Source: an uncultured bacterium
Lineage (GTDB): Bacteria; Patescibacteriota; Minisyncoccia; Moranbacterales; GWC2-37-73
Direction: 5' to 3'
Assembly: GCA_903837175.1 (NCBI GenBank)
Contig: CAILTR010000055.1
Span: 819 to 64,818 of the forward strand
Length of the DNA: 64,000 bases
Shown: positions 1 to 57,091 of the stretch, in pieces
Layout of the letters: each line of letters opens with the position of its first letter
How positions within the stretch are numbered: the stretch's first letter is position 1
Notes under the pieces: generated by a model
Seen by the model: only the letters and a program-made list of their open reading frames with translations
Told to the model about the DNA's origin: nothing
Databases searched by the model: none
Program-made: the position numbers and the translations under genes

Positions 1-2964
1 TCAGACTGGGATTATAGTTTAAGCACAATCGCACCGCACGCTACCATTGATACTACAACTTTTAATGCAGAAAAAACTATACTAACCGTTCATTACACTG
101 GAACACTCGTGGAGCAAATAGACAAGCATTATGTTGTTGATTCTTGGACATCGGTAGGTGGTTGGGATGTAAGGGATTTAGCTGGCAATCCTGACAATTT
201 GCAGACGATTCAGAATGGTACACCAGTTTATCCGATTGCGTTTGCCGTGACTGCTGATACCATAGCACCAACTGAATCATCGGTTATTCTTAACCAAACA
301 GCCAAAACAGTCACCACGATTTTCAGTGAGCCAGTTCAACTGAAGAATGGTTCCACCGTCACTGCCTATGGGGATGTTACAAAAAATGATCTTGGAATTT
401 ATAAACTTACTGGTACAATGACGTGGGAAAACGCTGCAGTCGGTGGTGTCGAGGTCTCAGCTGTCCACTTTTCAGATGCTACCCATCTTACGGTTACCTA
501 CACTGGAACACTTCCAGTCGGAATCTATATCGTGGATACTTTTGGAGCTGACGTGACCGACCTTGCTGGCAATAAGCTGACTGACGCTGGAGCGTTGACG
601 TTTGAAGTGACTGACGCCACGCTTCCGACTGCAACAGTAACTCATGTCGATTCAACAAAGACAATTGTCTATACTTTTAACGAACCAGTACAGCTAATCA
701 ATGAAGGTAGCCTTGTGGTTACCGCGGCTTCAGCTATAACCCCATCAATGTTAGGTATTCATGCAGTAGTTATGCCAGGAATGACGTGGGATAGTACCGT
801 AAAAGTAGATACAATTTTATCAGCCAGTTTTGACGGTACGGGCAAGATTCTAACTATTGTATATACTGGAACACTACCAACAGGAAGCTATGTCGTGGAT
901 ACGTACGGATACAGCGTAACTGATTTAGCGGGCAACGAGATAGTAGATGATCCAAGTTTGATATTTGCAGCTGATAGTACTGCACCAGCCGGTGGACTGC
1001 TAACAGTGCTGACAACAAATCATCCAACACCTGGAATTACAGTTGATACCCCAACAGCTGGCGTCTATGCTATTACTCCAGCGCTCACTGGATCGGATCA
1101 ATTAACTTCACTCACAGTTGTGGTTACAGATGCTGATTTAAACAAGACAGCTGTTCCTGCCTATATTGATGGAGGTGGAACTGCAAACGGAACAATGGTT
1201 TGGAGTAGTGGTAGTGTTTGGACTTGGACTCCAGGTTCAGCCGTAAATTTCACAGAAGGCGAACATTATCTCACAGCTACATTTGCTGATAATGCAGGCA
1301 ATACTACACTGCTGAGAGCTAACTTTACAACTGACAAGACTGCACCAGTAATTACGCGGCTAGGAACTTCACCTCTTAATGTTATATATGGCTCAACCTA
1401 TACTGATTCAGGGGCTACCGCGAACGATACTTTAGATGCAAATATTACTGAAAATATTGTAACGGTTAATCCAGTTAATACGGCTATTCCAGGTGATTAT
1501 ACAATAACTTATAATGTTGTTGATGGGGCTGGTAATCACGCCTTAGAGGTTTCGAGAATAGTACATGTGATTAAGGCGAATGCAGACTGTACCTCAATTA
1601 TTGGATATGATGACGTCTATGACGGAAGCGCTCATGGCGCATCCGGCACTTGTGAAGGCGTCGGCAGTGACGGAACTTTAGCAGGTCTTAATCTTGGCGC
1701 CTCATTTACGGATGTTCCTGGCGGTACGGCTAATTGGACCTTTACCGATACGACTGGAAACTATAATAATGCAAGTGGCAGTGTAGATATCTCGATCGGA
1801 CAAACTGAACCTGATGAGGATGGAAATGCTACGCTTAATAATAGTAATCCTCAAGTTGTTTTAACCGACGGAGAGCAATCTGTAACCATCAAAGTTACGC
1901 CCGGCACCGAAAGCCCAACCATTGACGTGAGCGCATTGCTTACAGGGACACTCCCTGAAATTACCATAAATACTGAGGTTGCTGAGGTTTTCATCCCAGC
2001 GGGGACAGTGGTAACTGGCCCGGCTGGTTGGGATGGCGTTATTAACGCACCGACAGCCGGTACGCCGAGCGGTGGCAACGCGCCAGCAGGTTTTGCAGTC
2101 GGCGAGACGGTTATTACCCTTGGCTCAGCAAGCGGGATGCTGCTCTTTAACCCAGCAGTGGTTATCACGCTTCCAGGCGTGACTGGCGCAGTGGGCTATC
2201 GTCCAGCTGGCTCGAATCAATGGATTGAAATTACGAATGTTTGCACTGGAAACTATGATGATCCAACTGGTGCACCAGCGGGTGGGGAATGCGCCATCAA
2301 TGATGGAGTTGATACGAAGATTCTAACTTATCATTTTACCTCTTTTGGCGATTTATTAGATACGAGAGCCCCAGAGACCGTCGATAATTTCAAAGGAGTT
2401 TATCGCCCGATTACTGGAGACGTTGAATTAACTTGGGATATTAACGATAGCGACACCTCGAAAGTTTTAATTTATCGCGGGACAACTTATCATTATACTT
2501 TAAACAGTCACTCACACCTAAATACCCAAGATAGGCGAGACGAGAATTATATTGATAAAGACGTTACCCCAGGCAAAACTTATTATTATAGAATAATAAC
2601 TAAAGACGAAGCTGGAAATAAAAGTGATGTCAAAGTAATTAAAATTACAATCCCAATTAATGGAAGCGTCGCCATTAGTACGCCAGAACCTACCGAGCCA
2701 GCGCCAACAGGGGCTACTATTCAAGAAGAAACGACAACCACTGGTGGATCCGGCACTTCGGTAACGGGTGGAATGAGTGGTAGTGACCAAGGCAGTTCGA
2801 CGAAAGGCTCCGTCTTAGGTGAAACAACCGACCAAGGCAATGGAAATCAGCAACCAGGCTTCTGGGCCTCGAACTGGAAATGGTTTCTAGCCCTAATCTT
2901 TGCTGGCGGGGGATTCTTCTTCTGGCTAAGGCGTCGACAGGGAGGCGGGAACGTCGTTGGCTAA
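1..2964 (+). CDS. Large surface protein, 5'-truncated by the window edge. It has repeated Ig-like domains (DUF5011/BIG-like), an Fn3 domain, a Ser/Thr/Gly-rich stalk, and a C-terminal TM anchor with a basic tail.
   Basis: The ORF 109..2964 continues in frame to position 1, where the upstream residues (...ILTVHYTGTLVEQ) match the internal repeat 'ILTIVYTGTLPTGSYVVDTYGYSVTDLAGN'. There are about four ~100-aa repeats and a DUF5011-like segment 'APVITRLG...GDYTITYNVVDGAGN'. 'YYYRIITKDEAGNKS' is Fn3-like. The C-terminus is '...VLGETTDQG...WKWFLALIFAGGGFFFWLRRRQ'. Confidence 0.6.
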   Translation, partial: SDWDYSLSTIAPHATIDTTTFNAEKTILTVHYTGTLVEQIDKHYVVDSWTSVGGWDVRDLAGNPDNLQTIQNGTPVYPIAFAVTADTIAPTESSVILNQTAKTVTTIFSEPVQLKNGSTVTAYGDVTKNDLGIYKLTGTMTWENAAVGGVEVSAVHFSDATHLTVTYTGTLPVGIYIVDTFGADVTDLAGNKLTDAGALTFEVTDATLPTATVTHVDSTKTIVYTFNEPVQLINEGSLVVTAASAITPSMLGIHAVVMPGMTWDSTVKVDTILSASFDGTGKILTIVYTGTLPTGSYVVDTYGYSVTDLAGNEIVDDPSLIFAADSTAPAGGLLTVLTTNHPTPGITVDTPTAGVYAITPALTGSDQLTSLTVVVTDADLNKTAVPAYIDGGGTANGTMVWSSGSVWTWTPGSAVNFTEGEHYLTATFADNAGNTTLLRANFTTDKTAPVITRLGTSPLNVIYGSTYTDSGATANDTLDANITENIVTVNPVNTAIPGDYTITYNVVDGAGNHALEVSRIVHVIKANADCTSIIGYDDVYDGSAHGASGTCEGVGSDGTLAGLNLGASFTDVPGGTANWTFTDTTGNYNNASGSVDISIGQTEPDEDGNATLNNSNPQVVLTDGEQSVTIKVTPGTESPTIDVSALLTGTLPEITINTEVAEVFIPAGTVVTGPAGWDGVINAPTAGTPSGGNAPAGFAVGETVITLGSASGMLLFNPAVVITLPGVTGAVGYRPAGSNQWIEITNVCTGNYDDPTGAPAGGECAINDGVDTKILTYHFTSFGDLLDTRAPETVDNFKGVYRPITGDVELTWDINDSDTSKVLIYRGTTYHYTLNSHSHLNTQDRRDENYIDKDVTPGKTYYYRIITKDEAGNKSDVKVIKITIPINGSVAISTPEPTEPAPTGATIQEETTTTGGSGTSVTGGMSGSDQGSSTKGSVLGETTDQGNGNQQPGFWASNWKWFLALIFAGGGFFFWLRRRQGGGNVVG

Positions 2965-2986: not shown

Positions 2987-3040
2987 AAAACGAAAAACGT
3001 TGCATTTAATTCTTGCAACGTTTTTCGTTTTGGATTTTTG
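2987..3040 (+). terminator. Rho-independent terminator: an 18-bp perfect stem followed by a T-run.
   Basis: 'aaaacgaaaaacgttgca' (2987-3004), a loop, then 'tgcaacgtttttcgtttt' followed by 'ggatttttg'. It lies immediately after the stop at 2964. Confidence 0.65.
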
Positions 3041-3089: not shown

Positions 3090-4637
3090 TTGCTAAAAAA
3101 CATCAGGAGAATTAAAATAATTTTTCAGCGTATTTTTTTACCTGGAGTTTTTTTAACGTTTAGGCAACTGGTTTTTACTGGTTTAATCTTCAGCCTAACT
3201 TTTTATCTGGCTGGTCTAAATTTTTCCGCTACGGAATTGATGACGGTCAAGGCTGAAGAAATAGCTATTGATGCACCAACTTTTGCAATACCGGATGAAG
3301 TAGGGGACGTAGTTCTTTATGCCGAGGTTGATCGGGCCGTCCTGACTGATTTAGCTCAAGCGGTAACAATTTATGTGTATGAGGGAGCAGTTAATCCAAA
3401 CGTTGATGTCAACGCTTTTATTAATAGTGAAAGTAAAGCTGGGACTTTACCTGAAATTACCATTAATACTGACGTTGCGAGTGTTTTTATCCCAAGCGGA
3501 ACAGTGGTGACTGGCCCAGTCGATTGGGATGGGATAATAAATTTGCCGACTCTTGGTGAACCGGACGGAGGCAAAAATCCTGCAGGTCTTATAGTTGGGG
3601 AGACAGTTATTACCCTTGGCTCAATAAAAGGGGCGTTAAATTTCAGTAAACCCGTCGTGATAACTTTGCTTGGCGTGACTGGTGCAGTGGGTTATCGGCC
3701 TGCCGGTTTAGGCCAATGGGTGGAAATTTCTAATATTTGTACAGGCACCTACGAAAATCCAACTGGCGCGCCAGCGGGGGGAGCATGTGTAATTAGTAAT
3801 GACACAGACACTAAAATTTTAACTTACCATCTTACTTCTTTTGGAAATTTAATTGATGAACAATTACCAGAAGTTTTTTCCGCGGAAACGCAAGATCTAA
3901 ATGGGAATGGTAAGCTCGATGCGATTAAACTTACTTTTTCGGAAAGGATCGATGACGATAGATTAGCGAAAGGCACGCCAGATAATTGGGACGTGCTTGG
4001 CTATGAAGGTGAATCAATTAGTACTGGCAGTACCGAAAATGATAAAATTCTCTGGCTTAGTTTTAGCGAAGGTTTAGCTACCGACCTGGACGCTTTGCCA
4101 ATAGTTACGTATACGCAGGCGCCACCTCCTACTAATGGGTGTAGTACTCATGACTTAGCTGGTAATGAATTAGCAAATGGTAGTTGGGAGTCAGCGGCTA
4201 AGATTTTAATTCCTGACCCACCGACCGATAGTCGCGAAAATATCGCTGACCCGGTAAATATTAGTAATGAAGTTACTGAAGTTGTTATTGATAAGAATAA
4301 AAGTAAAGCTAAACATAAAGCAGCCCACAAAAAATCCAAGGTAAAATCAGCTCAAACTATTCAGCCAGTTCGGGCTCTTGCGAAAAAAAATATTGTGCCA
4401 GAAAAAAACGCTGATATTGTGCCGGATATTTCAAAACTGGTGGCAGATATTCAACCAGCCCTAAGTAGCGGTGCAGTCCTCGGTGAGGCAACCGAGCAAG
4501 GTGATAAAAAGCAAATAGTTCTTTGGTTTTTAAGCTGGAGATGGTTTTTAATCGCACTGCTTATTCTCCTAATCATTCTCATCGCCTTAGAGAGTCTTCT
4601 CTGGCGAAAGCAACGACAAAGAAATAAGGTTACCTAA
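3090..4637 (+). CDS. Membrane-anchored surface protein, paralogous to the upstream gene. It shares a ~140-aa domain and the same C-terminal motif, TM helix and basic tail.
   Basis: It has an N-terminal signal/TM. The segment 'TLPEITINTDVASVFIPSGTVVTGP...GAVGYRPAG...CTGTYENPTGAPAGG' is ~65% identical to residues ~600-750 of the first protein. The C-terminus is 'AVLGEATEQG...WRWFLIALLILLIILIA...RKQRQRNK'. Confidence 0.55.
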   Translation: MLKNIRRIKIIFQRIFLPGVFLTFRQLVFTGLIFSLTFYLAGLNFSATELMTVKAEEIAIDAPTFAIPDEVGDVVLYAEVDRAVLTDLAQAVTIYVYEGAVNPNVDVNAFINSESKAGTLPEITINTDVASVFIPSGTVVTGPVDWDGIINLPTLGEPDGGKNPAGLIVGETVITLGSIKGALNFSKPVVITLLGVTGAVGYRPAGLGQWVEISNICTGTYENPTGAPAGGACVISNDTDTKILTYHLTSFGNLIDEQLPEVFSAETQDLNGNGKLDAIKLTFSERIDDDRLAKGTPDNWDVLGYEGESISTGSTENDKILWLSFSEGLATDLDALPIVTYTQAPPPTNGCSTHDLAGNELANGSWESAAKILIPDPPTDSRENIADPVNISNEVTEVVIDKNKSKAKHKAAHKKSKVKSAQTIQPVRALAKKNIVPEKNADIVPDISKLVADIQPALSSGAVLGEATEQGDKKQIVLWFLSWRWFLIALLILLIILIALESLLWRKQRQRNKVT

Positions 4638-32600: not shown

Positions 32601-32822
32601 ATGAGAAATGAAATTTATTCAAATGGTCATAGGTTTTTAACGCAACAGTTAAAGAAGGCACGAGAAAATTCTGGCTTTAGTCAGAAAGATGTTGCTGAGC
32701 TTTTAACTAAAACTCAATCTTATGTTTCCAAGATTGAGGCGGGGCAACGTCGTATCGATGTAATTCAATTACAAGAATTTGCAAAAATTTATAGAAAGAA
32801 GATTAATTTTTTTATTAAGTAA
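32601..32822 (+). CDS. XRE-family HTH protein. It is a controller (C)-like regulator of the R-M cassette.
   Basis: 'GFSQKDVAELLTKTQSYVSKIEAGQRRIDVIQLQEFAKIY'. It is 73 aa and sits immediately upstream of the small nuclease candidate. Confidence 0.65.
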   Translation: MRNEIYSNGHRFLTQQLKKARENSGFSQKDVAELLTKTQSYVSKIEAGQRRIDVIQLQEFAKIYRKKINFFIK

Positions 32823-32826
32823 ATTT

Positions 32827-33273
32827 ATGTGGGCAAAAAATCTAACTAAGATTAATGATGGAATTTTTAGGACTATTAATGGTAATTCCGATGAAATGAT
32901 AGGCGTCGGAAGGTGCATGAAGGCAGGTTTTCCATGTTCTCGGGCAGATGTAACTAACGGGAGATATGATGCCATTATTGATGTGGGTAATAACAAGTTA
33001 CTAAGAGTTCAAATAAAAGGAACATCTGGTGGAAGCGTTAGTTTTACGGGTGGAGGAAGAAGTGGAAAGCAAATCAGTAGAACAGTTAAACAACGGACAT
33101 ATCGATATTCTCCGGATGATTGTGATTTAATTCTGGTCGTAGATGGAAGAAGTGGGGAATGTTATATTATTCCAATTGAAGATATTCAACAAATGAGTAA
33201 TTCAAAGTCACTCGATAAACTGAGTAAATATAAAGAAAATTGGGATATTCTGAAAACGATGGCAGGAATCTAA
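32827..33273 (+). CDS. Candidate small restriction endonuclease (PD-(D/E)xK-like). Alternatively, a toxin partner of the XRE protein.
   Basis: 148 aa, translationally coupled to the XRE gene. The possible motif is 'YDAIIDV...LLRVQIKG' (D...QxK). It converges on, and overlaps by 4 nt, the methyltransferase gene. Confidence 0.35.
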   Translation: MWAKNLTKINDGIFRTINGNSDEMIGVGRCMKAGFPCSRADVTNGRYDAIIDVGNNKLLRVQIKGTSGGSVSFTGGGRSGKQISRTVKQRTYRYSPDDCDLILVVDGRSGECYIIPIEDIQQMSNSKSLDKLSKYKENWDILKTMAGI

Positions 33274-34835
33274 TTTAGAGCTTTTTTTATTTCTCTTGCA
33301 ACTGCCTCTAGAACAGTTACGGTTACGGAGTTTCCAGCTTGCTTGTAAAGCGCGGAGTCAGCTAAATTTGGAAGCTCAAAATCTCTCGGGAAACCTTGTA
33401 GCCTGAAACATTCAATCGGCGTTAGTTTTCTGATCCCATGCCTATCTTTTATAATTGGAACATTATGTCCTCCCATCCCCATGTTGGCAGTGAGCGTTGG
33501 GCAGACACCTTTTTTATTTTCTCTAACATATTGTCTTCGCCATTGGTAAACCTTACCTTCTTGCGTAACAAAATCTTTAAGTTTTTCGAAAAGAGGCTTA
33601 CCATTATAATAATATTTTTCAGGCACTTTTTGCTCAAGTAGATCAGTAACTTTTATTGATAATTTTTGTGGTTCGGGAAACTTAAATTTGTCTGTGTAAT
33701 TTTTATTTTTAAATCCTATGATATATATCCTTTCGCGATTTTGAGGAATATTTCCATACTCCATACTATTTAAAACCTTAGTTTTTACATGATAACCCAA
33801 GTCTTCCAGGGTTTTGATAATTATTTTAAAAGTTTTTCCTCCGTCATGTCCTTTTAGGTTTTTTACATTTTCCAGTAGAAACCCTGCCGGATTGCGAGCT
33901 TCTAGAATTCTAGCAACATCGAAAAATAAATTACCGCGGTCTTTTTCATCATTAAACCCCTTGCGGTATCCAGCTATAGAGAAAGCTTGGCAGGGAAATC
34001 CTCCCAAGAGAAAGTCGAATTCCGGAAGATCTTCAATGCCAATTTTGCGGATATCCTCTACGACAAGTTTTGATTTTTTGAAATTTAAATCGTAAGTAGT
34101 CTTACAATTTTTTTCAAAGTCATTCGCAAAGACAGTTTCAAAGCCAGCTTTTTCAAAACCAAGTCTAATACCCCCGACGCCAGCAAATAAGTCCAGGGTT
34201 CGGAAAAGTTTTTGATCTGTTTTGCTGCTGTTTTCAAGATTTCTTTTTATCTCAACAACTACGCCTCTAATTTCAACCTCCTTTCTATAAATGGGAAGCA
34301 TTGTTTGGTTAGCTGGTTGCAATCTAAATCGATTTTTTTCTCGATAAATCTTTTTTAGAGTAGCTTCATTATCATCAATTATCGCAACGACAGTTTGTCC
34401 ATTTTCGGCGACGGATTGTTTTTTAATAACGACAATGTCACCATCAAAGATTCCTTCATCAATCATGCTATTTCCCTGAACTTGTAGTGCATAATAATTG
34501 CCAGCTTTATTTACGGCGCTTGTCGCAATCATCACAGTTTCTCCTCTAGTTTCGATAGCTTCAATGGGTTGCCCAGCGGCGATGGTTCCGATTAACGGTA
34601 TCTTAATGAGATTGTAGGGGTTCCTTTTTTTAAGTTCGATACCTCTAGCAGAACTGCCATTTTTTTCTATAAATCCTTTTTTTTCTAAAGTTTCAATATG
34701 TTGATGCACGGTTGAAATAGCAGAAAGTTTGAAATGTTTTCTGATTTCTTCAATAGTTGGAGAAAAAGTTTTTTTATTAATAAACAAGGTTATAAAATCT
34801 AGGATTTGTTTTTGTTTTTTTGTTAGGGTTGGCAT
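33270..34835 (-). CDS. LexA repressor (wHTH plus S24 peptidase) fused in-frame to a C5 cytosine-specific DNA methyltransferase.
   Basis: The N-terminal ~205 aa align along LexA: 'LTKKQKQILDFI', 'SSARGIEL', the 'IAAGQP' Ala-Gly cleavage site, the nucleophile Ser in 'VQGNSM', the general-base Lys in 'VVIKKQ', and 'VVAIIDD'. The C-terminal ~315 aa carry Dcm motifs I 'DLFAGVGG', IV 'GGFPCQAFSIAG' and 'ENVKNL'. There is no stop or start between the two parts. Confidence 0.8.
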   Translation of the reverse strand: MPTLTKKQKQILDFITLFINKKTFSPTIEEIRKHFKLSAISTVHQHIETLEKKGFIEKNGSSARGIELKKRNPYNLIKIPLIGTIAAGQPIEAIETRGETVMIATSAVNKAGNYYALQVQGNSMIDEGIFDGDIVVIKKQSVAENGQTVVAIIDDNEATLKKIYREKNRFRLQPANQTMLPIYRKEVEIRGVVVEIKRNLENSSKTDQKLFRTLDLFAGVGGIRLGFEKAGFETVFANDFEKNCKTTYDLNFKKSKLVVEDIRKIGIEDLPEFDFLLGGFPCQAFSIAGYRKGFNDEKDRGNLFFDVARILEARNPAGFLLENVKNLKGHDGGKTFKIIIKTLEDLGYHVKTKVLNSMEYGNIPQNRERIYIIGFKNKNYTDKFKFPEPQKLSIKVTDLLEQKVPEKYYYNGKPLFEKLKDFVTQEGKVYQWRRQYVRENKKGVCPTLTANMGMGGHNVPIIKDRHGIRKLTPIECFRLQGFPRDFELPNLADSALYKQAGNSVTVTVLEAVAREIKKALN

Positions 34836-35085: not shown

Positions 35086-37194
35086 ATGCTACAAGAAAAA
35101 TTAGCTTCTTTTTTCGTTAAAATAAGCCAAAATGAAAAAGTATTGGTCAGATTTTTGCTGGGCATTTCAATTGTGGTTTATTTTGTTTTTGGTTTTTATC
35201 ATCTAGCAAATTTTATTTCAGCAGATGAGCATTTTTGGTTGCCTAATTCTGGTAGTGAGCGCATCCAAGATTATTGGAAGGCAATTTCTAAGCAGGACTG
35301 GAAAGATACGAAGATTAATGATAAGCCTGGAATAACTTTGGCATATACCTCGGGTATTGCCATGCTTTTTGAAAAAAATCCCGGGGGTCAATTGATTTCA
35401 AATGGTGGCACTGTCAAATTATTTAATCCTGAAATAACCAAACGGATTAATTTTCTTTATCGGCTTCCAATCCTTTTGATCAGTGGCTTTTTCTCCTTGT
35501 TCTTTTTCTGGATTATCAGAAAAATTACAAACAATCCATGGATGGCGTTGTTTTCGGCCATGGGAATTTTACTTTCTCCAGTTTTGTTGGGGATGTCCCA
35601 AATTGTAAATCCAGATTCTCTTTTTTGGCTTTTCGCTTCAGCTTCGATGTTTTCTTTCTTTGCTTTTTTACAACATGGTCAGAAAAAGCTAGCGATTTGG
35701 AGTTCAATTTTCCTGGGGTTGGGGTTGGCGAGTAAATACGTGAGTGTGATTTTGTTTCCATTTTTCTTTTTTATGATGGTTGTTTATTATTTCTTTGAGT
35801 TTTTTAGGTGGGATAATCGACAAAAAGATTTTGCAAAAATGGTAATTAGAAATAGTTTTTCTTATTTGGGGGTTTTATTTGGTGGAATGCTTATTTTTGC
35901 AATTCTGATGCCAGCTTCTTTTGTGGAGCCAAAAGTTTTCTACGAAGGTACAATTGGCTTTCCTGGGATGCAACCTATCTTTTGGACAGTGATGATTATT
36001 AATGCGATTTTAATTTTGGATGCTCGCTTCTTTGTTAGTGGCGGTTTTGTCTGGCTAATAAAAAGACTAAAGCCACTCGAGGAAATCCTGCCAAAAATAG
36101 TCTATGCTATTTTATTTGGAACGGTTTTCTTTGTGCTCACAAATTGGCTTTCGAGAAATAGTATTATTGATTTATCTGGCATCCCTTTTAACTTAAAGAG
36201 AAGTGATCTTTTCAGCGAGCTTCCTTATTTTAAAAGATTTATTATGGAGTTTGTTCCGTTGACGTTTGCGTTGACGCCAGTAGCCTTGTTTATGCTCATG
36301 TTTGCTTGGTTTAGGGGCTTTTTAAATCAAACAAAGATAAAAACATTCTCTTTCTTGTTGTCGATATTCTTCTTGATATTTATAGTGGCAGTTATCGAGC
36401 AGGGGCTGCTGATTACTGTTCGATATAGTATTATTTTGTTTCCACTCTCAATGATTATTGGCTCTATTTCCTTGGTGGAGTTCTTTTCTGACATTCGAGA
36501 AAAAAAACTTGATGCTAGGGGGCTCAAGGTTTTTGCATTTGGCTTTTCGCTAGTGCTTATCTTGTTTACTAGCTTGATAATTCAACAGTATTTTCTTAAT
36601 AGCATTTATAAGAATGCTTTCGTCGATAGAGTATATCGCAGTTGGTATGGTATATTGTTTATTTTAGTTGCTACAATAGCGCTTGTTTTTACTTTGCGTA
36701 AAGTTGCTATTAGGAAAAAAATTGCTGACGTCTCAATGGTTTGGATTTTTTCTTTGGTGGCTTTGCTTAATATTGTTAGTATTTCCTTGATAGCACCTTT
36801 TTATTTCAGTTATACTAATAATCTTTTGCCAAAAAATTATATTATTAGTGGTGCTTGGGGCTATGGGGGATATGAGGCTGCGCAATATATGAACAGCTTG
36901 CCAGAGGCAAAAAATCTAACTTTATGGGTGGATGCTTATGGGGTTTGTGAATTTTTTGTTGGTAAATGCATCCATAAAGCTAAAGTGGATACTCAAAAAT
37001 ATCCAATTGACTATTATTTCCAATCCTTGCAATCGACAATTGCTATTAATTTTCCCCATGCGATGGAAAAGAATTCCGTTTGGAGATTAGAGATTGATGG
37101 ACGAGAAAAAAGTTTCTTGAAAATCAGGCAATCAAAACCTCTCATTACTGGGCAATCGGTTCAGGGCGATGCTTCTTCGGTAGATGATAACTAA
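35086..37194 (+). CDS. GT-C fold integral-membrane glycosyltransferase (PMT/ArnT-like, GT39/GT83-type).
   Basis: 'FISADEHFW' DE-loop after TM1 and at least 12 TM helices. The conserved C-terminal 'ISGAWGYGGYEAAQYMNSLP...GVCEFFVGKC' is shared with the next gene. Confidence 0.6.
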   Translation: MLQEKLASFFVKISQNEKVLVRFLLGISIVVYFVFGFYHLANFISADEHFWLPNSGSERIQDYWKAISKQDWKDTKINDKPGITLAYTSGIAMLFEKNPGGQLISNGGTVKLFNPEITKRINFLYRLPILLISGFFSLFFFWIIRKITNNPWMALFSAMGILLSPVLLGMSQIVNPDSLFWLFASASMFSFFAFLQHGQKKLAIWSSIFLGLGLASKYVSVILFPFFFFMMVVYYFFEFFRWDNRQKDFAKMVIRNSFSYLGVLFGGMLIFAILMPASFVEPKVFYEGTIGFPGMQPIFWTVMIINAILILDARFFVSGGFVWLIKRLKPLEEILPKIVYAILFGTVFFVLTNWLSRNSIIDLSGIPFNLKRSDLFSELPYFKRFIMEFVPLTFALTPVALFMLMFAWFRGFLNQTKIKTFSFLLSIFFLIFIVAVIEQGLLITVRYSIILFPLSMIIGSISLVEFFSDIREKKLDARGLKVFAFGFSLVLILFTSLIIQQYFLNSIYKNAFVDRVYRSWYGILFILVATIALVFTLRKVAIRKKIADVSMVWIFSLVALLNIVSISLIAPFYFSYTNNLLPKNYIISGAWGYGGYEAAQYMNSLPEAKNLTLWVDAYGVCEFFVGKCIHKAKVDTQKYPIDYYFQSLQSTIAINFPHAMEKNSVWRLEIDGREKSFLKIRQSKPLITGQSVQGDASSVDDN

Positions 37195-37229
37195 GCTCTT
37201 AAAGTATGAGCTAAACAAGAACTAAAAAT

Positions 37230-39044
37230 ATGAATACTATTGCCTCATATCTGAAAAGACCAGCATTCTTACTAAGCATCCCCCTGCTTTTGTATTTCGT
37301 TTTTTCCGTTCATCATTTGACGAAATTTGAAACGGCGGATGAGCATTTTTGGTTTAATGATCCTGCTCATGACAGAATCCATCAATATTGGACTGCCGTT
37401 TCTCAGCATAATTGGATTGCAACTAGAATTAATGATAAACCAGGAATTTCTTTGGTTTTTATTTCAGGTGCGGGTCTTCTTTTTGAGAGAGCTATTTTAA
37501 ACGGAGGCCAAGTCAATGTTCAAAACGTTGAGCGGCTTAATTTTGTTTTTCGCTTTCCTCAGGTTTTTTTTACTGCGTTGGCCGCAATCTATTTTTTTTG
37601 GGCCCTACGGAGAATAACAAAAAAGGATTTCCTTGCGCTTTTAGCTGTTAGTTTTATCTTGCTCAGTCCTATTTTAATTGGGATTTCCCAGATTGTTAAT
37701 CCTGATTCAATGCTTTGGATTTTTTCATTTGCAACTGTGTTGGCGTTCTTTCTTTATCTGCAAGAAGAGAAAAAAATTCATTTGTTTTCAGCTGCAATCT
37801 TTTTTGGAATGGCACTTCTGAGCAAATATGCCGCACTTATGCTAGTGCCATTTTTTCTAGCAATGATCGGTTTCTTTTTGATTTTTGAAGGAACTAACTG
37901 GGATAGGGTTACACTTAAAAAGAAAATTTTTAAATTCTCAATAGCCTATTTTAGTCTTATTTTTGGAGGTTTCTTGTTGTTCTCAATCCTGATGCCTGCC
38001 GTATTAGTAGATCCCATGCTTGCCTATAAGAGCACGATAGGGTTTAAGGGAATGCAATATATTTTTTGGCCATTAATTTTTCTGAATTCTCTACTGCTGC
38101 TTGATTCTGCCTTGAGTGAGAGTCGGTTTGCAGTTTTTTTAATAAAAAAGAGTAATAAGCTCAAAAGAGTATTGCCAAAAATTCTGTATGTATTTTTAAG
38201 TGGCATGTTTTTGCTTGTTTTGCTGAATTGGTCAGTCGGCAAAAATTTTATGAATGTTTTGAGTGTAGCCTTTGATTCAGCGGAAGGATCGAAATATCAG
38301 CATGCTTCCTTGTTCGATCAATTAATGCTCCAATTTAAGCCGATTGTTTTTTCGCTCACCCCACTTGTCCTTGCTAGTTTGCTTTTCCTTTGGCTGAAAG
38401 CGATTTTTAGAAAAATTGAAAATGAGCTGTTAGTGTTCTTATTCTCATTGTTTGTTTTTATTTTTTATGTGGCGGTGATGAGACAGGGGCTGCTTGTTAC
38501 TATTCGCTATGCTATAATTTTATACCCAGTTTTATTTGCGCTGGCAGCATTTGGAATAGCAGAGTTATTTTTATCTGTGAAGAAGTTTACTTTCCCAAAG
38601 ACTATAATTCTTATGGTTATTGTTGGAGTTTCAATAGTTAGCCTTTGGCAAAGCAAGCCGTTTTATTTTAATTATACAAATAGCTTGATGCCAAAAAATA
38701 GCGTCATCACTGGTGCCTGGGGTTATGGTGGTTATGAAGCTGCTCAATATCTCAATAGTCTGCCTGGCGCTGAAAACCTAGTTGTTTGGTCTGATTATTA
38801 TGGCGTTTGTCCATTTTTTGTTGGTAAATGTATGAAAGCTTATGCGCTAAGCGATTATGCCAAGAAAAATTCTTTGGAATCAATTAATTATGCGGTGGCA
38901 ACGCGCAGAGGCAAAAAGCAAAATATAAATATGTGGAAAAAATTTGATCATTATGATATTAAAAAAGCTTGGGCCTTATTTATTGACGGACGGCAGGCAA
39001 ACTTTGTAGAAATTTACAAGAATGGGGGACCCGTTGAAGATTAG
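37230..39044 (+). CDS. GT-C fold glycosyltransferase, tandem paralog of 35086..37194.
   Basis: 'FETADEHFWF' and 'ITGAWGYGGYEAAQYLNSLPGAENL...GVCPFFVGKC'. Confidence 0.6.
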   Translation: MNTIASYLKRPAFLLSIPLLLYFVFSVHHLTKFETADEHFWFNDPAHDRIHQYWTAVSQHNWIATRINDKPGISLVFISGAGLLFERAILNGGQVNVQNVERLNFVFRFPQVFFTALAAIYFFWALRRITKKDFLALLAVSFILLSPILIGISQIVNPDSMLWIFSFATVLAFFLYLQEEKKIHLFSAAIFFGMALLSKYAALMLVPFFLAMIGFFLIFEGTNWDRVTLKKKIFKFSIAYFSLIFGGFLLFSILMPAVLVDPMLAYKSTIGFKGMQYIFWPLIFLNSLLLLDSALSESRFAVFLIKKSNKLKRVLPKILYVFLSGMFLLVLLNWSVGKNFMNVLSVAFDSAEGSKYQHASLFDQLMLQFKPIVFSLTPLVLASLLFLWLKAIFRKIENELLVFLFSLFVFIFYVAVMRQGLLVTIRYAIILYPVLFALAAFGIAELFLSVKKFTFPKTIILMVIVGVSIVSLWQSKPFYFNYTNSLMPKNSVITGAWGYGGYEAAQYLNSLPGAENLVVWSDYYGVCPFFVGKCMKAYALSDYAKKNSLESINYAVATRRGKKQNINMWKKFDHYDIKKAWALFIDGRQANFVEIYKNGGPVED

Positions 39045-39096
39045 GGGGCGTAATGAATTTATAGAATGAATAATTATTTTTTGTGACTAAAAATAT

Positions 39097-40659
39097 ATGC
39101 AAAAAAACCTACAATCATTTAGGAAATACTTTCTGCGAAATAAATTGCGCTTCAATATGATTATTTTGCTTGCGATTATTATCTTGGGTGGAGTGCTACG
39201 GATGTATGATCTTGGAAAAAATTCTTTTATTGCTGATGAGTATTTGGATATGAATTCAGCTTATGCATACCGAATGACACATGTTTGGCAAGCCTGGGAT
39301 TTTAATTTTGGCAAGCCAAATACAGCAGATGTTAATCAGGCAAGGGATGTGAGAGCTTGGATGTATAAATGGCAAGTTGCGCAGGTTTTCAAGCTGCTCC
39401 CCCCAACGGAAGAAATGGCGCGGTTAGTGAGCGTGTTTTGGGGCTTGGTTAGTATTGCTTTAATATATGGAGTTGCATTCTCTTTTACGAAAAAACGTCA
39501 AATTGGGTTGCTAGCCGCTTTTTTGTTTGCGATAAGTGCGATGGGCATTATGTTTGATAGAAAATTGAGGATGTATGCGATGTTTTATCCAATGTATTTG
39601 GCATTGTCCTGGACTTTGTTTATGGCCTATGAGAAAGCGTATGAAGGCAAGAATAAGCTTGCAAGGAAAATCTGGGAATATTGTAGTGTGAATATCCTTT
39701 ATATAATCCCAACCTTAATCCTCGGGTATGTTAGTTTAGAATTGCAGCTTCTGACTGTAAACATCGCGGCAGCCTTTTTTGGCTTTGTGCTTGTTCAGGC
39801 TGTTCTGCAATGGAAAAAGGAACGGAAAATAACGGCTAATAAATATAGTATTTCAACTCTGCTGATAATTTTTGTTTCGGCTTTTGCAATTAAATTTCTC
39901 CCAGGTATTACTGGAATTTTCGTGACATCGATAAAGTTCTTCATTAATAATGGTGGATATTTTGAAAAAATTCTTTCAGATTATAATAATTGGATGCTGG
40001 GAGTTTTATTTTTTATTGTCGGGGGATATTTTTTGTATCAAAAGGAAGGGAAAAAGAAAGAAACTATTTGGCTCTTGACTTCTATTCTTGTTCCTCTTCT
40101 TATGGCGGCTTTCATGTGGAAGAGAACCCAAGGTATCCAGTATGTTTTTTTCTTGCAATCATTTTTGATTATCTTGGTCGCAACGGGAATATATGCAGTC
40201 GCAGTGTTTTTTGAGAAACATCTTTTAAGCATTTCGAAAAAAGCATATTTGGTAACAATCGTACTGGCTTTATTGCTCCTTCCAAATTACGCTTATTTTT
40301 CAGGTGAGAATAATACTTATCACAGAACAGATGTAGGTGATTATCGCAAAGTTTTTTTGTATGTCAAAAAGAATTTCAAGCCTGGCGACGTGATCGTTAC
40401 CAGAAATTTTAGAAATTATTATCTTTCTGGAATGCACGCCAAAGTCTTTGATTTCGGAGGAGAATCGGCCGTGAATGATTTTTCAGTTGATCAGCTCAGG
40501 CAAGTTGTGGAGCAAAATAATAGCGGCTGGGTAGTACTTTTTGATAATGACACTTTGTTTTTAACTAAAGACGCCAAACTATATCTTGAAAGTAATCTTT
40601 CCAAGACCGACAATGCTGCGGTCAGAGGTCAGGCTACGGTTTATTTTTGGCGAAGGTGA
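39097..40659 (+). CDS. GT-C fold glycosyltransferase (ArnT/PMT-like).
   Basis: 'SFIADEYLD' loop motif and multi-TM topology. Confidence 0.55.
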   Translation: MQKNLQSFRKYFLRNKLRFNMIILLAIIILGGVLRMYDLGKNSFIADEYLDMNSAYAYRMTHVWQAWDFNFGKPNTADVNQARDVRAWMYKWQVAQVFKLLPPTEEMARLVSVFWGLVSIALIYGVAFSFTKKRQIGLLAAFLFAISAMGIMFDRKLRMYAMFYPMYLALSWTLFMAYEKAYEGKNKLARKIWEYCSVNILYIIPTLILGYVSLELQLLTVNIAAAFFGFVLVQAVLQWKKERKITANKYSISTLLIIFVSAFAIKFLPGITGIFVTSIKFFINNGGYFEKILSDYNNWMLGVLFFIVGGYFLYQKEGKKKETIWLLTSILVPLLMAAFMWKRTQGIQYVFFLQSFLIILVATGIYAVAVFFEKHLLSISKKAYLVTIVLALLLLPNYAYFSGENNTYHRTDVGDYRKVFLYVKKNFKPGDVIVTRNFRNYYLSGMHAKVFDFGGESAVNDFSVDQLRQVVEQNNSGWVVLFDNDTLFLTKDAKLYLESNLSKTDNAAVRGQATVYFWRR

Positions 40660-40688
40660 GGTTTTTAGAGATTTACTAAAAATGAACA

Positions 40689-42317
40689 ATGAAAAAAATT
40701 TATAATTTTGTATTGAAAAATAGAATTGTTTTAGTCCTAAATGTCATTTTGGCAATGGGAATTTTTGTGCGGGTTTACAACTTTCATGATTGGCTTAGGT
40801 TCCACAAGGACGAGGCGCGTGATGCTTCTATCATAAGGGACGTTATTTCGAATGGTCATGCGTTGCCTCTACTCGGTCCAGTTGTTGGCACGACTGATTT
40901 TAAACTTGGTCCAATCTTCTATTATTTTCAATATGTTTCTGCGAAAATATTTGGCCTTGCTCCGGATGTGTTGGCCTATCCGGATTTGTTTTTTTCAATT
41001 TTAAGTATTCCACTTCTGTATTTTCTGCTAAAAAGATTTTTTTCAAAAAATATTTCATTATTACTAATGGCTTTGTATGCTGTTGATTTTTTTGCTATCA
41101 GATATGCTAGGTTTGCTTGGAATCCTAATTCGCAGCCATTCTTTTTAATGCTTTTTCTATATGCTTTTCTGGAAATTGTTTCAGCAAAGACTGATAAATC
41201 CAAATGGTTTTGGGCGACAGTCGTTGGCATTTCTCTAGGTGTGGGCGTTCAATTGCATATTTTGTTTTTGTTGTCGATACCGGTTATGACACTTATCTTT
41301 TTCTTCTATTTAAGAAGGGAAGGTAAGTTGAATTGGAAGATGTTATTTTGGATAGTATCAATTGCCTTTTTTCTCAATTTGCCAGTGGTTTTTTCGGAAA
41401 TAGGAAGTGGTGGCAAGAATACTCTGGAATTTATCAAGGTTGTTTTTTATGAGCCGCCACAGCTTGGAACCCCAATAACTACCATGCAATGCTTGTCTCA
41501 TGTTAATACCTATATTCTGACTTCAATTGGGGAGGATAATTACTGCAAGACTATTACGAAGAATGACGGTAAAATTCTGGTTGATTTTTTCACGAACGGT
41601 TTTAAAAATATCCTTACAGCTTCCATTGTGTTTTTTAGCTTACTCCTTACTTTAGGCGGGTATGTTTTATTAGGGTATTTCATCAAGCGAGAAGCTAATT
41701 TTGAAAAGAAAATTTTTTTGCATTTTATTTCAATTTTTTTTATAGTCAGTTTTATTGTTTGCTTGTTAGTTCTTAATCCGATGACTATGCGGTACTTTGT
41801 CATCGTTGAAATAGTTCCGTTTATATTCTTAGGATTGTGGCTCAAATACATTTTAGGATTCAAGAGGTTTTGGAAATATTTGATTGCCTTTGTTCTTTTT
41901 TTGTTTTTGTTCGGAATGAATTTCCAATCCATTGCTGCAGAAGTTGAATATCTCAATGGCAGAGCCCCGGAAATGCCTTATGGGGTTATAAATCTTACCT
42001 TAGGAGAGGCTGAACTTTTTTCTAATTTTATTTTCGAGCATGCTAATCATTCCAAACCAGTTTATCTTAATGGGCGAAATGTCAGCCTGGAGAATGTGCT
42101 GGCTGCTTTGGATTATCTCCCAGCTTCTTCACAGCTAAAGATTTCTTCAATTAAGAAGCAACAGACAACGGATGCTACTTTCTTTGCTTTTGGTCCAATC
42201 TCGAACCCTGATTTGGAAAAAAATCTCACTGAAGATGAAAAAAACATTTATCAGCTCAAAAACTATGCTTCCAATGGAAGATATTTTATCATGCAACTTG
42301 AGCGTAAGCAAAAATAA
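40689..42317 (+). CDS. GT-C fold glycosyltransferase (ArnT-like).
   Basis: 'FHKDEARDASI' after TM1 and a multi-TM N-terminal half. Confidence 0.55.
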   Translation: MKKIYNFVLKNRIVLVLNVILAMGIFVRVYNFHDWLRFHKDEARDASIIRDVISNGHALPLLGPVVGTTDFKLGPIFYYFQYVSAKIFGLAPDVLAYPDLFFSILSIPLLYFLLKRFFSKNISLLLMALYAVDFFAIRYARFAWNPNSQPFFLMLFLYAFLEIVSAKTDKSKWFWATVVGISLGVGVQLHILFLLSIPVMTLIFFFYLRREGKLNWKMLFWIVSIAFFLNLPVVFSEIGSGGKNTLEFIKVVFYEPPQLGTPITTMQCLSHVNTYILTSIGEDNYCKTITKNDGKILVDFFTNGFKNILTASIVFFSLLLTLGGYVLLGYFIKREANFEKKIFLHFISIFFIVSFIVCLLVLNPMTMRYFVIVEIVPFIFLGLWLKYILGFKRFWKYLIAFVLFLFLFGMNFQSIAAEVEYLNGRAPEMPYGVINLTLGEAELFSNFIFEHANHSKPVYLNGRNVSLENVLAALDYLPASSQLKISSIKKQQTTDATFFAFGPISNPDLEKNLTEDEKNIYQLKNYASNGRYFIMQLERKQK

Positions 42318-42415
42318 TAATTTTAATAATAATTAATTTCAAAAAATTGAATAAAATAAATCTCAATAATTTTTCAAAAAAGCTACTAAAATTTAAATAC
42401 CTCAAAAGGTCGATA

Positions 42416-43753
42416 ATGTTTCTCCTGTTACTTGTAGTTATTTTTTTCGCGTTGAGCTTTAGGAGTTATCCATTTAAGCTTATTTATGAAAATAAACAAA
42501 GGTATCTTTTAATAATGTCTCAAATAAAAAAACCTCAAATCCCAGAAAGGCAGTGTAATATTTTGGATTATGGCGCGATTGGAGATGGTAAAACAAAAAA
42601 TACCGAAGCTATTAAACAGGCAATAGGTGATTGCTCGCAAAAAGGTGGTGGGAAGGTTATTTTTCCTGCGGGAAAGTGGCTCACTGGTCAGATTCATTTT
42701 TTAGATAACATTGAACTTTCACTAGTAAAAGACGCCGAAATTAATTTTAGCGATGACCGAAATGATTATTTGCCGTTGGTTTTTTCACGCTATCAAGGCA
42801 TGGAATACTTTAATTATTCTCCGCTCATTTATGCTAATAATTGTCGCAACATTGCAATAACGGGGGAAGGAAAACTTATCGGAAACGGAGTAATGTGGAG
42901 AGTTTGGAGCGATAAGCCACAAGATCCCAATGCGGGAGCAGAGCTTTTGGCTATGGTCAAAGCAGGCGTGCCAGCAGAGCAAAGAATTTTCGGTGAGCAG
43001 TATGGTCTTAGGCCATCCTTCATCCAGTTTATTAATTGCAAAAATATTTTAGTGCAGGGAATTTCAATTGAGGACGGTCCAATGTGGACTATTCATCCTA
43101 TATATTCTGAAAATATTATCATTGATAATGTTAAAATAGATACCTACGGAATAAACACTGATGGTGTGGACGTTGATTCTTCGAAAAATGTGCTTATTAA
43201 AAATTCTGATATTTCTGCGGGTGATGATGCAATTTCAATAAAAGCAGGTCTGGGGGAAGATGGTCTGAGAATAAATAAACCAGCTGAAAATGTCATAATT
43301 AAAAATTGTAAAATGAGAGATGGGCATAGTGGAATTTCAATCGGAAGTGAACTCACTGGTGGGGTAAAGAATATCATTATGCAAAATAACACTTTTGATT
43401 CAACAGAGGATGGTTTCAAGATAAAGTCTTCGCCTGGTCGAGGTGGAATTGTTGAAAATATTTGGCTAGATGGTTCTAATATGTTAGTTAATAGCCATGC
43501 TATTTCTTTGGATATGTTTTATGGATCTAATATTTTGACAAACGGAGAGCAGGAATCAATCTTTAGAAATATTCTTATTTCTAAAACTAATATAACGAAA
43601 GCACAGAATGCTTTTAGCGTAAATTCTTTAGACAAGGATCATATTTATAATATAACCGTGACAAATTTCAAAGCAGTCTCTGGGAGAGGCATCCAGATTG
43701 AAAAAGCGGGGAGAATTGACTTTAATATGCTTAATATAAAGTCAAAACGCTAG
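42416..43753 (+). CDS. Glycoside hydrolase family 28 (polygalacturonase-like right-handed beta-helix), secreted.
   Basis: 'ILDYGAIGDGKTKNTEAIKQAI', 'SAGDDAISIKAG', 'DGHSGISIGSE' and 'GFKIKS' are GH28 catalytic motifs. A signal-anchor precedes them. Confidence 0.75.
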   Translation: MFLLLLVVIFFALSFRSYPFKLIYENKQRYLLIMSQIKKPQIPERQCNILDYGAIGDGKTKNTEAIKQAIGDCSQKGGGKVIFPAGKWLTGQIHFLDNIELSLVKDAEINFSDDRNDYLPLVFSRYQGMEYFNYSPLIYANNCRNIAITGEGKLIGNGVMWRVWSDKPQDPNAGAELLAMVKAGVPAEQRIFGEQYGLRPSFIQFINCKNILVQGISIEDGPMWTIHPIYSENIIIDNVKIDTYGINTDGVDVDSSKNVLIKNSDISAGDDAISIKAGLGEDGLRINKPAENVIIKNCKMRDGHSGISIGSELTGGVKNIIMQNNTFDSTEDGFKIKSSPGRGGIVENIWLDGSNMLVNSHAISLDMFYGSNILTNGEQESIFRNILISKTNITKAQNAFSVNSLDKDHIYNITVTNFKAVSGRGIQIEKAGRIDFNMLNIKSKR

Positions 43754-43765
43754 GAGTGCCGTTGA

Positions 43766-55131: not shown

Positions 55132-55175
55132 GATTGCTTCGGGTGATTACACCCTCGCAAAGACAGATTAAAAAA

Positions 55176-56858: not shown

Positions 56859-56859
56859 A

Positions 56860-57042
56860 ATGAAAAAAGTTATCGAGTCTGGAATTTATTTGTTGATTTT
56901 TTTACTGCCCTGGCAAACGAGGTGGATTATTGAGGCTGGGAAAATAAAGGGGGGAGCGAGCGAATATTTAACATATAGTCTTTACGGGGTTGATCTTTTA
57001 TTAATAGGGTTATTTTTTTTTAGCCTTGTTGTATTTTCATAA
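56860..57042 (+). CDS. Small two-TM ORF. It is probably the detached N-terminal segment of the downstream O-antigen-ligase-like gene.
   Basis: 'IYLLIFLLPWQTRWII' resembles the N-terminus of ligase-family proteins. It is separated from 57113 by a duplicated palindrome. Confidence 0.3.
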   Translation: MKKVIESGIYLLIFLLPWQTRWIIEAGKIKGGASEYLTYSLYGVDLLLIGLFFFSLVVFS

Positions 57043-57052
57043 AAGTTTTTTC

Positions 57053-57091
57053 TTGGAGGCTAAGCCTCCAACTGGAGGCTTAGCCTCCAAG
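57053..57091 (+). repeat. Tandem pair of palindromes (ttggaggct a agcctccaa / ctggaggct t agcctccaag).
   Basis: Direct reading. The same GGAGGCTTAGCCTCC core occurs at 4724-4739. Confidence 0.7.

What the first reader, a model, noticed from the sequence alone, without database searches (positions are those of the whole stretch)
2790..2964. Shared C-terminal motif, TM helix and basic tail on two paralogous surface proteins: a possible sorting signal
Both surface proteins end with a conserved acidic-Gly motif, 'SVLGETTDQG' and 'AVLGEATEQG'. About 10 residues later comes a Trp-flanked hydrophobic helix, 'WKWFLALIFAGGGFFFW' and 'WRWFLIALLILLIILIA'. An Arg/Lys-rich tail follows, 'LRRRQ' and 'RKQRQRNK'.

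This tripartite layout mirrors LPXTG/sortase, PEP-CTERM/exosortase and PGF-CTERM/archaeosortase signals. The motif itself matches none of those classes. The second copy is at 4470-4637.
Basis: seen in the sequence. Interest (0 to 1): 0.6.

Follow-up and report, generated by a model that had tools for sequence, protein, structure and literature searches.

The report
Conserved C-terminal membrane-anchor tail, CPR adhesins
Two neighbouring giant surface-protein genes of a Parcubacteria (CPR) bacterium end in the same conserved tail (a G-x-VLG-x-x-T motif, a tryptophan-marked membrane helix and a basic end); it looks like a sorting signal, but in every sequence I could reach it sits on only one or two related proteins per genome, with no processing enzyme in view.

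Summary
Both ORFs (1..2964, cut by the window start, and 3090..4637) end with G-x-VLGE-x-T-x-QG, a polar spacer, a W-x3-W-x-W-marked TM helix and an Arg/Lys tail.

The motif is a conserved island in an otherwise unalignable linker. Synonymous differences between the two copies show selection on the protein.

No curated sorting-signal model reaches its cut-off (LPXTG, PEP-CTERM, PGF-CTERM, GlyGly-CTERM and others).

- An exhaustive profile search of 1.84 billion protein representatives gave 12 hits. Nearly all are orthologues of these two genes.
- A metagenome scan gave 2 loci.
- In 408 kb of fetched sequence, related loci included, no third tail-bearing family appears.
- The second gene exists only in some genomes, and its N-terminal leader is also homologous to that of the first gene's orthologues, so it is a tandem duplicate.
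- No sortase, exosortase or rhomboid gene lies in the roughly 75 kb of this contig that I could read.

One point favours a real module: a borderline hit places the tail on a Saccharimonadales protein that lacks the shared domain.

Best reading: a lineage-restricted stop-transfer membrane anchor with a functional juxtamembrane motif. A cleaved sorting signal is possible (about 0.3) but unproven.

The parts
1..2964 (+). p1: large surface protein, N-terminus missing (frame open from base 1; the source contig ends about 0.8 kb upstream). Orthologues are 1375-2322 aa with variable Ig-like/MBG/YDG domains.
1810..2376 (+). p1 copy of the shared ~190-aa domain (residues 568-756); no Pfam or PDB relative
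2671..2805 (+). p1 low-complexity S/T/G-rich linker, not conserved among orthologues
2806..2829 (+). p1 motif island G-S-V-L-G-E-T-T (G900-T907)
2830..2856 (+). p1 polar spacer DQGNGNQQP; the spacer is 3-10 residues long in p1-type relatives
2857..2925 (+). p1 GFW-x3-W-x-W boundary and Gly-rich TM helix (G917-W939)
2926..2964 (+). p1 basic tail LRRRQGGGNVVG plus stop codon
2987..3031 (+). Perfect 18-bp hairpin followed by a U-rich run: likely intrinsic terminator separating p1 from p2
   Evidence: dG -26.2 kcal/mol, z = -5.8
3090..4637 (+). p2: 515-aa paralogue (TTG start), present only in some related genomes
3090..3257 (+). p2 long N-terminal leader / signal-anchor (IKIIFQRIFLP...LNF...MTVKAEE), homologous to the leader of p1 orthologues
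3291..3872 (+). p2 copy of the shared ~190-aa domain (residues 68-261), 62% identical to p1
4470..4493 (+). p2 motif island G-A-V-L-G-E-A-T (G461-T468)
4494..4523 (+). p2 spacer EQGDKKQIVL
4524..4604 (+). p2 W-x3-W-x-W boundary and TM helix (W479-W505); the only part of the AF2 model with pLDDT above 70
4605..4637 (+). p2 basic tail RKQRQRNKVT plus stop codon

Best explanation
p1 and p2 are tandem paralogues encoding Sec-exported, adhesin-like surface proteins of a Parcubacteria/Paceibacterota bacterium.

Each ends in a roughly 50-aa module inherited by descent:
- a G-x-VLG-x-x-T island;
- a short polar spacer;
- a Trp-marked TM helix ((G)FW-x3-W-x-W);
- a 7-13 residue Arg/Lys tail.

The module most likely works as a stop-transfer (type I) membrane anchor. 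The helix stays in the cytoplasmic membrane and the basic tail stays in the cytoplasm. The low-complexity linker carries the ectodomain through the envelope.

The VLGxxT island lies just outside the membrane and is under purifying selection. It probably serves as a docking or processing site whose partner is unknown.

Shown: sequence anatomy, conservation pattern, paralogy, rarity, and lack of membership in known signal families. Inferred: topology, and retention rather than cleavage of the helix.
For: - The tails are homologous, while the regions just before them are not.
- Among nine p1-type proteins, the 45-55 aa linker is unalignable, but G-x-VLG and GFW-x-x-x-W-x-W are invariant.
- The Trp triad and the small-residue pattern inside the helix are conserved across subfamilies. 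This is unusual for a discarded helix.
- The N-terminal leader of p2 is homologous to that of the p1 orthologue P0014.
- p2 is found only in the window, L001 and L025. It is absent from the syntenic loci L004, L005, L027, L028 and the P0016 contig.
- The exhaustive profile search gave 12 hits in 1.84e9 representatives. Eight are p1/p2-type.
- The narrow-tail scan of JGI metagenomes gave 2 loci.
- No third tail family occurs in 408 kb.
- No known sorting-domain model reaches its cut-off.
- No sortase-like gene appears in the window, the next 10 kb, or any fetched locus.
- L006, a Paceibacterota homologue with 63% identity in the shared domain, ends in a plain TM plus KKNKKQKK tail without the motif. 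A simple anchor therefore suffices for this protein family.
Against: - The architecture (wall-spanning low-complexity linker, short conserved motif, spacer, TM, basic tail at the extreme C-terminus) is exactly that of a Gram-positive cell-wall sorting signal.
- A plain anchor gives no reason to hold a six-residue extracellular island invariant.
- The tail also occurs, at borderline significance (35.6 bits, E=7e-4), on P0022. This is a Saccharimonadales Ig-like protein that lacks the shared domain, so the module is not strictly tied to one passenger.
- Distant Bacillota homologues of the shared domain carry SLH domains or LPxT-like ends at the same position. This 'choice-of-anchor' behaviour is typical of sorted proteins.
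- Only about 75 kb of the source genome was visible.
Confidence: 0.55

Rival explanations
1. The tail is a true cleaved sorting signal (an orphan 'VLGxxT-CTERM'). An extracytoplasmic enzyme encoded elsewhere in the genome would cut at or near VLGxxT and attach the protein to the wall or to a lipid, discarding the helix. The enzyme could be a sortase, or another cysteine or serine peptidase. The variable spacer fits an enzyme with a soluble catalytic domain, as for LPXTG/sortase.
For: - The layout is tripartite and follows a low-complexity linker.
- The motif island is invariant while its flanks are free to vary.
- Protein-level selection is shown by synonymous differences.
- The tail occurs on a Saccharimonadales protein without the shared domain.
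- Homologues in Bacillota use SLH or LPxT-like ends at this position.
- LPXTG signals have a spacer between motif and helix, whereas signals cut by membrane-embedded enzymes do not (bioRxiv 10.1101/2023.06.07.544157).
- More than half of CPR genomes encode a sortase, though patchily outside Microgenomates (PMC6744442).
Against: - Only one or two substrates per genome are visible, at one conserved locus.
- No enzyme gene is consistently adjacent. Peptidase_C39_2 lies upstream in 2 of about 5 contexts only.
- No sortase was found in any fetched sequence.
- Residues inside the helix are conserved.
- No curated model hits.
Confidence: 0.3
2. The motif is a regulated shedding or maturation site. 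The protein is first held by the TM anchor and then released from the cell by a generic envelope protease. A candidate is the membrane-anchored Peptidase_C39_2 encoded upstream in some genomes. No transfer to a new anchor would follow.
For: - An N-terminally anchored C39_2 peptidase lies divergently 1-2 kb upstream of the p1 orthologue in L001 and in the P0016 contig.
- Several tails have Gly or Gly-Gly just before FW (AGGFW, GGGFW).
Against: - C39_2 is absent from the upstream regions of L027 and L028.
- The motif does not resemble a double-glycine leader.
- The S41 Ctp peptidase in the window (61644-62942) would face the wrong side of the membrane for a cytoplasmic C-terminus.
Confidence: 0.1
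3. The resemblance is a chance or compositional similarity of two hydrophobic C-termini.
For: Short TM-plus-basic segments give weak sub-threshold hits to many unrelated sorting-signal models.
Against: - Invariant G-x-VLG and W-x3-W-x-W occur across nine or more diverged sequences.
- Profile E-values reach 1e-24.
- The motif pattern occurs nowhere else in the window.
Confidence: 0.02

Closest known systems
LPXTG cell-wall sorting signal / sortase (TIGR01167, Gram-positive)
   Same: Order of elements: passenger domains, low-complexity wall-spanning linker, short conserved motif, spacer, TM helix, Arg/Lys tail at the extreme C-terminus. Large adhesin-like passengers with a specialised long N-terminal leader.
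   Different: The motif is G-x-VLG-x-x-T, with no Pro and no T-G pair. The HMM does not reach its cut-off. Residues in the helix (W-x3-W-x-W) are conserved. No sortase was seen. Only 1-2 carriers per genome.
PGF-CTERM / archaeosortase A (TIGR04126)
   Same: p1 literally has P-G-F at the start of the helix, preceded by a Ser/Thr-rich stretch, with a basic end. The window also carries many glycosylation genes.
   Different: Orthologues have SGF, NGF, AGF or GGF, so Pro is not conserved. The model gives no hit for p1 or p2. PGF-CTERM is archaeal. No archaeosortase or exosortase gene was seen.
PEP-CTERM / exosortase (TIGR02595)
   Same: The TM plus RRR part aligns weakly (13.5 bits, cut-off 16).
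   Different: There is no PEP motif abutting the helix. That system belongs to Gram-negative bacteria with EPS loci.
'Choice-of-anchor' surface-protein families (homologous passengers with different C-terminal anchors in different lineages)
   Same: The shared ~190-aa domain ends in the VLGxxT tail in this Parcubacteria clade and in a plain TM anchor in another Paceibacterota MAG. It ends in LPxT-like signals in Syntrophomonadaceae and in SLH domains in Desulforamulus and Pelotomaculum.
   Different: This is an analogy of behaviour only. No curated choice-of-anchor model was matched.
Ordinary type I (stop-transfer) membrane anchor
   Same: N-terminal signal, single C-terminal helix, positive-inside tail.
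   Different: It has an extra invariant extracellular island and an invariant Trp triad.

Membership tests
LPXTG / sortase | LPXTG-like pentapeptide recognised by TIGR01167 or related NCBIfam models at or above cut-off | tested here: not met
   the best related hits for the p1 tail are sorting_LPXTATN at 11.8 bits (cut-off 32) and strep_LAETG at 7.2 bits (cut-off 30), both on the TM part only. The p2 tail has none; relatives score 12-13 bits against a cut-off of 15.9.
LPXTG / sortase | Sortase gene (TLxTC cysteine transpeptidase) in the same genome | not testable with these tools
   None was found in the window or the 10 kb beyond it, nor in 408 kb of loci. The rest of the genome could not be read.
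LPXTG / sortase | Tripartite C-terminal layout with a spacer between motif and helix | tested here: met
PEP-CTERM / exosortase | PEP motif abutting the helix; TIGR02595 at 16 bits or more | tested here: not met
   13.5 bits, covering profile positions 7-24 only (helix plus RRR).
PEP-CTERM / exosortase | Exosortase gene in the genome | not testable with these tools
   No such Pfam hit among the window ORFs scanned or the genes called in L018. The whole genome was unavailable.
PGF-CTERM / archaeosortase | Conserved PGF at the helix start; TIGR04126 at 24.5 bits or more | tested here: not met
   No hit for p1 or p2. Pro is not conserved in orthologues.
GlyGly-CTERM / rhombosortase | GG motif abutting the helix; TIGR03501 at 15.5 bits or more | tested here: not met
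   No hit for p1 or p2. P0022 scores 8.2 bits.
Generic sorting signal (Haft criteria) | The same short domain on several non-homologous proteins per genome | tested here: inconclusive
   Only p1/p2-type carriers occur in the visible sequence. One borderline carrier without the shared domain comes from another CPR class (P0022). Whole proteomes were not scanned.
Generic sorting signal (Haft criteria) | Strict co-occurrence with, or adjacency to, a processing enzyme | tested here: inconclusive
   No consistently adjacent enzyme. C39_2 lies upstream in L001 and the P0016 contig but not in L027 or L028.
Type I stop-transfer membrane anchor | N-terminal signal sequence, single C-terminal helix, positively charged cytoplasmic end | tested here: met
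   The AF2 model has a helix at 472-513, the only segment with pLDDT above 70.

The most novel reading that the evidence does not exclude
G-x-VLG-x-x-T plus a GFW-x3-W-x-W helix plus an Arg cluster is a previously undescribed C-terminal protein-sorting signal of CPR/Patescibacteria. It would be shared by Paceibacteria and Saccharimonadia and cut by a dedicated enzyme not yet identified, and it would anchor the giant adhesins these episymbionts use to contact hosts.
Probability: 0.2. Interest if true: 0.65.

Novelty: new variant of a known kind. Interest (0 to 1): 0.35.

Why it matters
CPR bacteria live attached to other cells, and how they build and decorate their envelope is largely unknown. 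A conserved, uncatalogued C-terminal module on their largest surface proteins is a concrete handle on how such adhesins are held at the surface. If it proved to be a processed signal, it would add a CPR-specific entry to the short list of prokaryotic sorting systems and point to its enzyme. On present evidence it is confined to a small clade and to one or two proteins per genome, so its reach is modest.

Tried and rejected
- The tail-only alignment search in the word-indexed protein database found nothing, not even the identical protein.
- A search with the C-terminal 212 aa of p1 also found nothing, for the same reason.
I used the shared-domain alignment A4 for genomes and the narrow tail alignment A5 for metagenomes instead.
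- I considered a degenerate DNA pattern scan for GFW-x3-W-x-W and dropped it. My estimate was hundreds to thousands of chance matches, and variable-gap patterns must start with four plain bases.
- The AF2 model of p2 was poor (mean pLDDT 34.7), so I made no fold search.
- The look-up of the last window ORF failed, probably because the start codon was called differently. The neighbouring ORF worked.
- The DLW-39 NCBIfam hit of the P0009 tail (28.7 bits) covers only the helix and basic part. I judged it compositional.
- P0021 is a repetitive sequence unrelated to the tail.
- The L013 tail (AGVLAETTEVK...NFNWWLL...RRRP) and its neighbour (PQVLSSSAER plus TM) resemble the motif by eye only. The tail profile does not score them, so I do not count them.
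- Literature searches for a described CPR sorting signal found none.
Full report
**What is there**

The window opens inside a long ORF. The frame is open from base 1, and the ORF as listed runs 109..2964 (here p1). A 515-aa ORF follows at 3090..4637 (p2). A perfect 18-bp hairpin with a U-rich tail lies between them at 2987-3031 (dG -26.2 kcal/mol, z = -5.8), so the two genes are probably separate transcription units.

- p1 ends ...KGSVLGETTDQGNGNQQPGFWASNWKWFLALIFAGGGFFFWLRRRQGGGNVVG.
- p2 ends ...SGAVLGEATEQGDKKQIVLWFLSWRWFLIALLILLIILIALESLLWRKQRQRNKVT.

**Is it more than chance?**

- A loose version of the motif occurs only twice among all six-frame ORFs of 80 aa or more in the window, both at these C-termini.
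- BLASTP of p1 against p2 gives a 194-aa block at 62% identity. After 130-200 aa with no alignment, it gives a second hit over the tails (42% over 33 aa, E=1e-5).
- The two tails differ at synonymous positions within the motif. The conservation therefore acts on the protein and does not come from recent gene conversion.

**Relatives**

A whole-protein search with p2 returned 13 proteins. I aligned their tails with those of p1 and p2 (A2) and used the profile for an exhaustive HMMER search of 1.84 billion cluster representatives. It found only 12 proteins at E<=1e-3.

- Eight are p1- or p2-type: P0002, P0007, P0011 and P0014-P0018. These run from 499 to 2322 aa, and P0014-P0018 (1375-2322 aa) have very different N-terminal domain sets.
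- The seven p1-type proteins among them all share the same C-terminal cassette: shared domain, FN3-like domain, linker, tail.
- Invariant residues across the tail alignments are G-x-V-L-G and W-x3-W-x-W. A Thr usually sits five positions after the Val, giving a consensus G-x-VLG-x-x-T.
- In an alignment of the last 150 residues of nine p1-type proteins, the FN3-like domain is conserved and the next 45-55 residues (S/T/G/N/D-rich) are unalignable. The motif island and the GFW...W.W boundary then stand out as invariant.

This is good evidence that the island is functional.

**Organism and context**

Loci found with the shared-domain alignment carry titles such as Candidatus Paceibacterota and Candidatus Colwellbacteria. 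P0019 is annotated as Parcubacteria group bacterium and P0022 as Candidatus Saccharimonadales. The window is therefore from a CPR bacterium, with 38% GC.

The source contig is 84.7 kb (ENA ERZ27313295, k141_216488) and ends inside p1's N-terminal part.

The rest of the window is dominated by envelope glycosylation genes:
- GT2 and GT4 glycosyltransferases;
- five PMT_2 GT-C paralogues;
- two Wzy_C proteins;
- DUF2142;
- a MurJ/Wzx-like flippase;
- an LCP protein.

The window also holds a MacB/FtsX ABC system and an S41 C-terminal processing peptidase.

No sortase, exosortase, archaeosortase or rhomboid family appears among these hits. A TLxTC pattern scan found no sortase-like ORF in the window or in any fetched locus.

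**Paralogy**

The N-terminal leader of p2 is homologous to the leader of p1 orthologues (33% identity, E=2e-10). p2 therefore shares leader, domain and tail with p1-type proteins and differs only in its middle.

- The p1-p2 tandem recurs in L001 and L025.
- p2 is missing from the otherwise syntenic loci L004, L005, L027, L028 and the P0016 contig. In each of those, the p1-type gene is followed directly by the same small membrane protein, a roughly 180-aa protein, Metallophos and LigB genes.

p2 is thus a lineage-specific tandem duplicate. That alone explains why two adjacent genes share the tail.

**Tests of the sorting-signal idea**

1. Membership. NCBIfam (June 2026) contains models for LPXTG, PEP-CTERM, PGF-CTERM, GlyGly-CTERM, MYXO-, JDVT-, Loki- and Heimdall-CTERM signals and others.
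   - None reaches its cut-off on p1, p2 or seven related tails.
   - The weak hits cover only the helix and basic part.
2. Multiplicity.
   - The exhaustive profile search gave 12 clusters.
   - A scan of JGI metagenomes with the narrow tail gave 2 loci.
   - The tail HMM plus a loose regular expression, run over 4238 ORFs from 408 kb of fetched sequence, found only p1/p2-type genes, P0019 and P0022.
3. Enzyme. No gene is consistently adjacent.
   - A membrane-anchored Peptidase_C39_2 lies upstream in L001 and the P0016 contig, but not in L027 or L028.
   - The conserved 189-aa upstream membrane protein appears to correspond to the protein annotated Ferric_reduct in L027 (an inference from position, not aligned), which is not a protease family.

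**Evidence that keeps the sorting idea alive**

- P0022 scores 35.6 bits (E=7e-4) and ends ...QVLGASTNT...GNFWGLGWWWLLILALILGLLYLLFRRRKDTENA.
   - It comes from a different CPR class and lacks the shared domain (E=1.1 with the domain profile).
- P0019 has only a diverged copy of the domain and no FN3 module.
- Distant homologues of the shared domain (31-43% identity) end differently in other lineages:
   - SLH domains in Desulforamulus, Pelotomaculum and another Bacillota MAG;
   - LPRTWG or LPGAWG plus TM plus RRK in Syntrophomonadaceae;
   - a plain TM plus KKNKKQKK tail in another Paceibacterota MAG.
- This 'choice-of-anchor' pattern shows that the C-terminal position is where envelope attachment is encoded.
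- The layout with a variable spacer between motif and helix resembles LPXTG more than the signals cut by membrane-embedded enzymes, which have no spacer.
- Sortases are present in more than half of CPR genomes, though patchily outside Microgenomates (PMC6744442). An enzyme encoded elsewhere cannot be excluded.

**Weighing**

Three things argue for a retained stop-transfer anchor with a functional juxtamembrane element (0.55):
- residues inside the helix are conserved (the Trp triad, and the Gly-x-Gly pattern in p1-type tails);
- only one or two carriers occur per genome, at a single conserved locus;
- a close homologue uses a plain anchor.

A processed sorting signal (0.3) or a shedding site (0.1) remain open. 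Chance is excluded.

The AF2 model of p2 was too poor to help. Only the helix at 472-513 was confident, and the motif lies in an unstructured stretch just before it.

**Novelty**

I found no description of this tail in curated model libraries or in the searched literature. It is best filed as a new, clade-restricted variant of the known class of tripartite C-terminal anchor or sorting modules. Processing is unproven.

Noticed in passing
window 33273-34835 (-), with 32779-33273 (+): One 521-aa ORF combines a LexA DNA-binding domain, a Peptidase_S24 self-cleavage domain and a complete C-5 cytosine DNA methylase. A PD-(D/E)XK endonuclease ORF lies next to it. This is an unusual LexA-methyltransferase fusion, possibly a damage-responsive restriction-modification control.
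   Followed up: no
window 1810-2376 and 3291-3872 (+): The ~190-aa domain shared by p1 and p2 has no Pfam hit and no PDB relative. It has distant homologues in Bacillota S-layer-homology proteins and in Nitrosopumilus/Nitrosotenuis MAGs. It looks like an uncharacterised surface-protein domain with conserved GWDG, GYRPxG and two Cys.
   Followed up: partly
window 3090-3257 (+); L001 4407-4560: p2 and the p1 orthologues share a long, conserved N-terminal leader (IKRIFQ..LLP, a hydrophobic stretch, LNF....MTAKAEE). It is reminiscent of the specialised signal peptides, such as YSIRK type, that accompany sorted Gram-positive surface proteins.
   Followed up: partly
window 35086-45583: Five paralogous PMT_2 (GT-C, protein-O-mannosyltransferase-like) genes in a row. 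Further on lie two Wzy_C genes (55134-58204), an LCP gene (59568-60794) and an S41 Ctp peptidase (61644-62942). The Ser/Thr-rich linker of p1 is a plausible glycosylation substrate.
   Followed up: no
L001 2523-3356 (-) and 3492-4061 (+); P0016 contig: A membrane-anchored Peptidase_C39_2 and a 189-aa membrane protein lie just upstream of the p1 orthologue in some genomes. By position the latter appears to correspond to the protein annotated Ferric_reduct in L027. The window's contig ends before this region.
   Followed up: partly
L002 1-160 (source contig end, about 0.8 kb upstream of the window): The source contig breaks inside p1's N-terminal region. The frame carries stop codons just upstream of the called start, yet the downstream sequence matches an internal part of orthologue P0014. 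This is probably an assembly break in a repetitive gene, so p1's true N-terminus is not available.
   Followed up: yes
P0009-P0018 C-termini; P0019; P0022; L013 4013-11089: Several relatives carry a second, degenerate copy of the motif 20-50 residues upstream: VGVLQGTE, GSILGDN, HVKGASTT, GGVLTTV. Whether this is an internal duplication or the end of the preceding domain is unresolved.
   Followed up: no
window 2987-3031 (+): A perfect 18-bp hairpin followed by a U-rich run lies between p1 and p2. The simple terminator scan missed it because its 9-nt loop exceeds the scan's 3-8 nt limit.
   Followed up: yes
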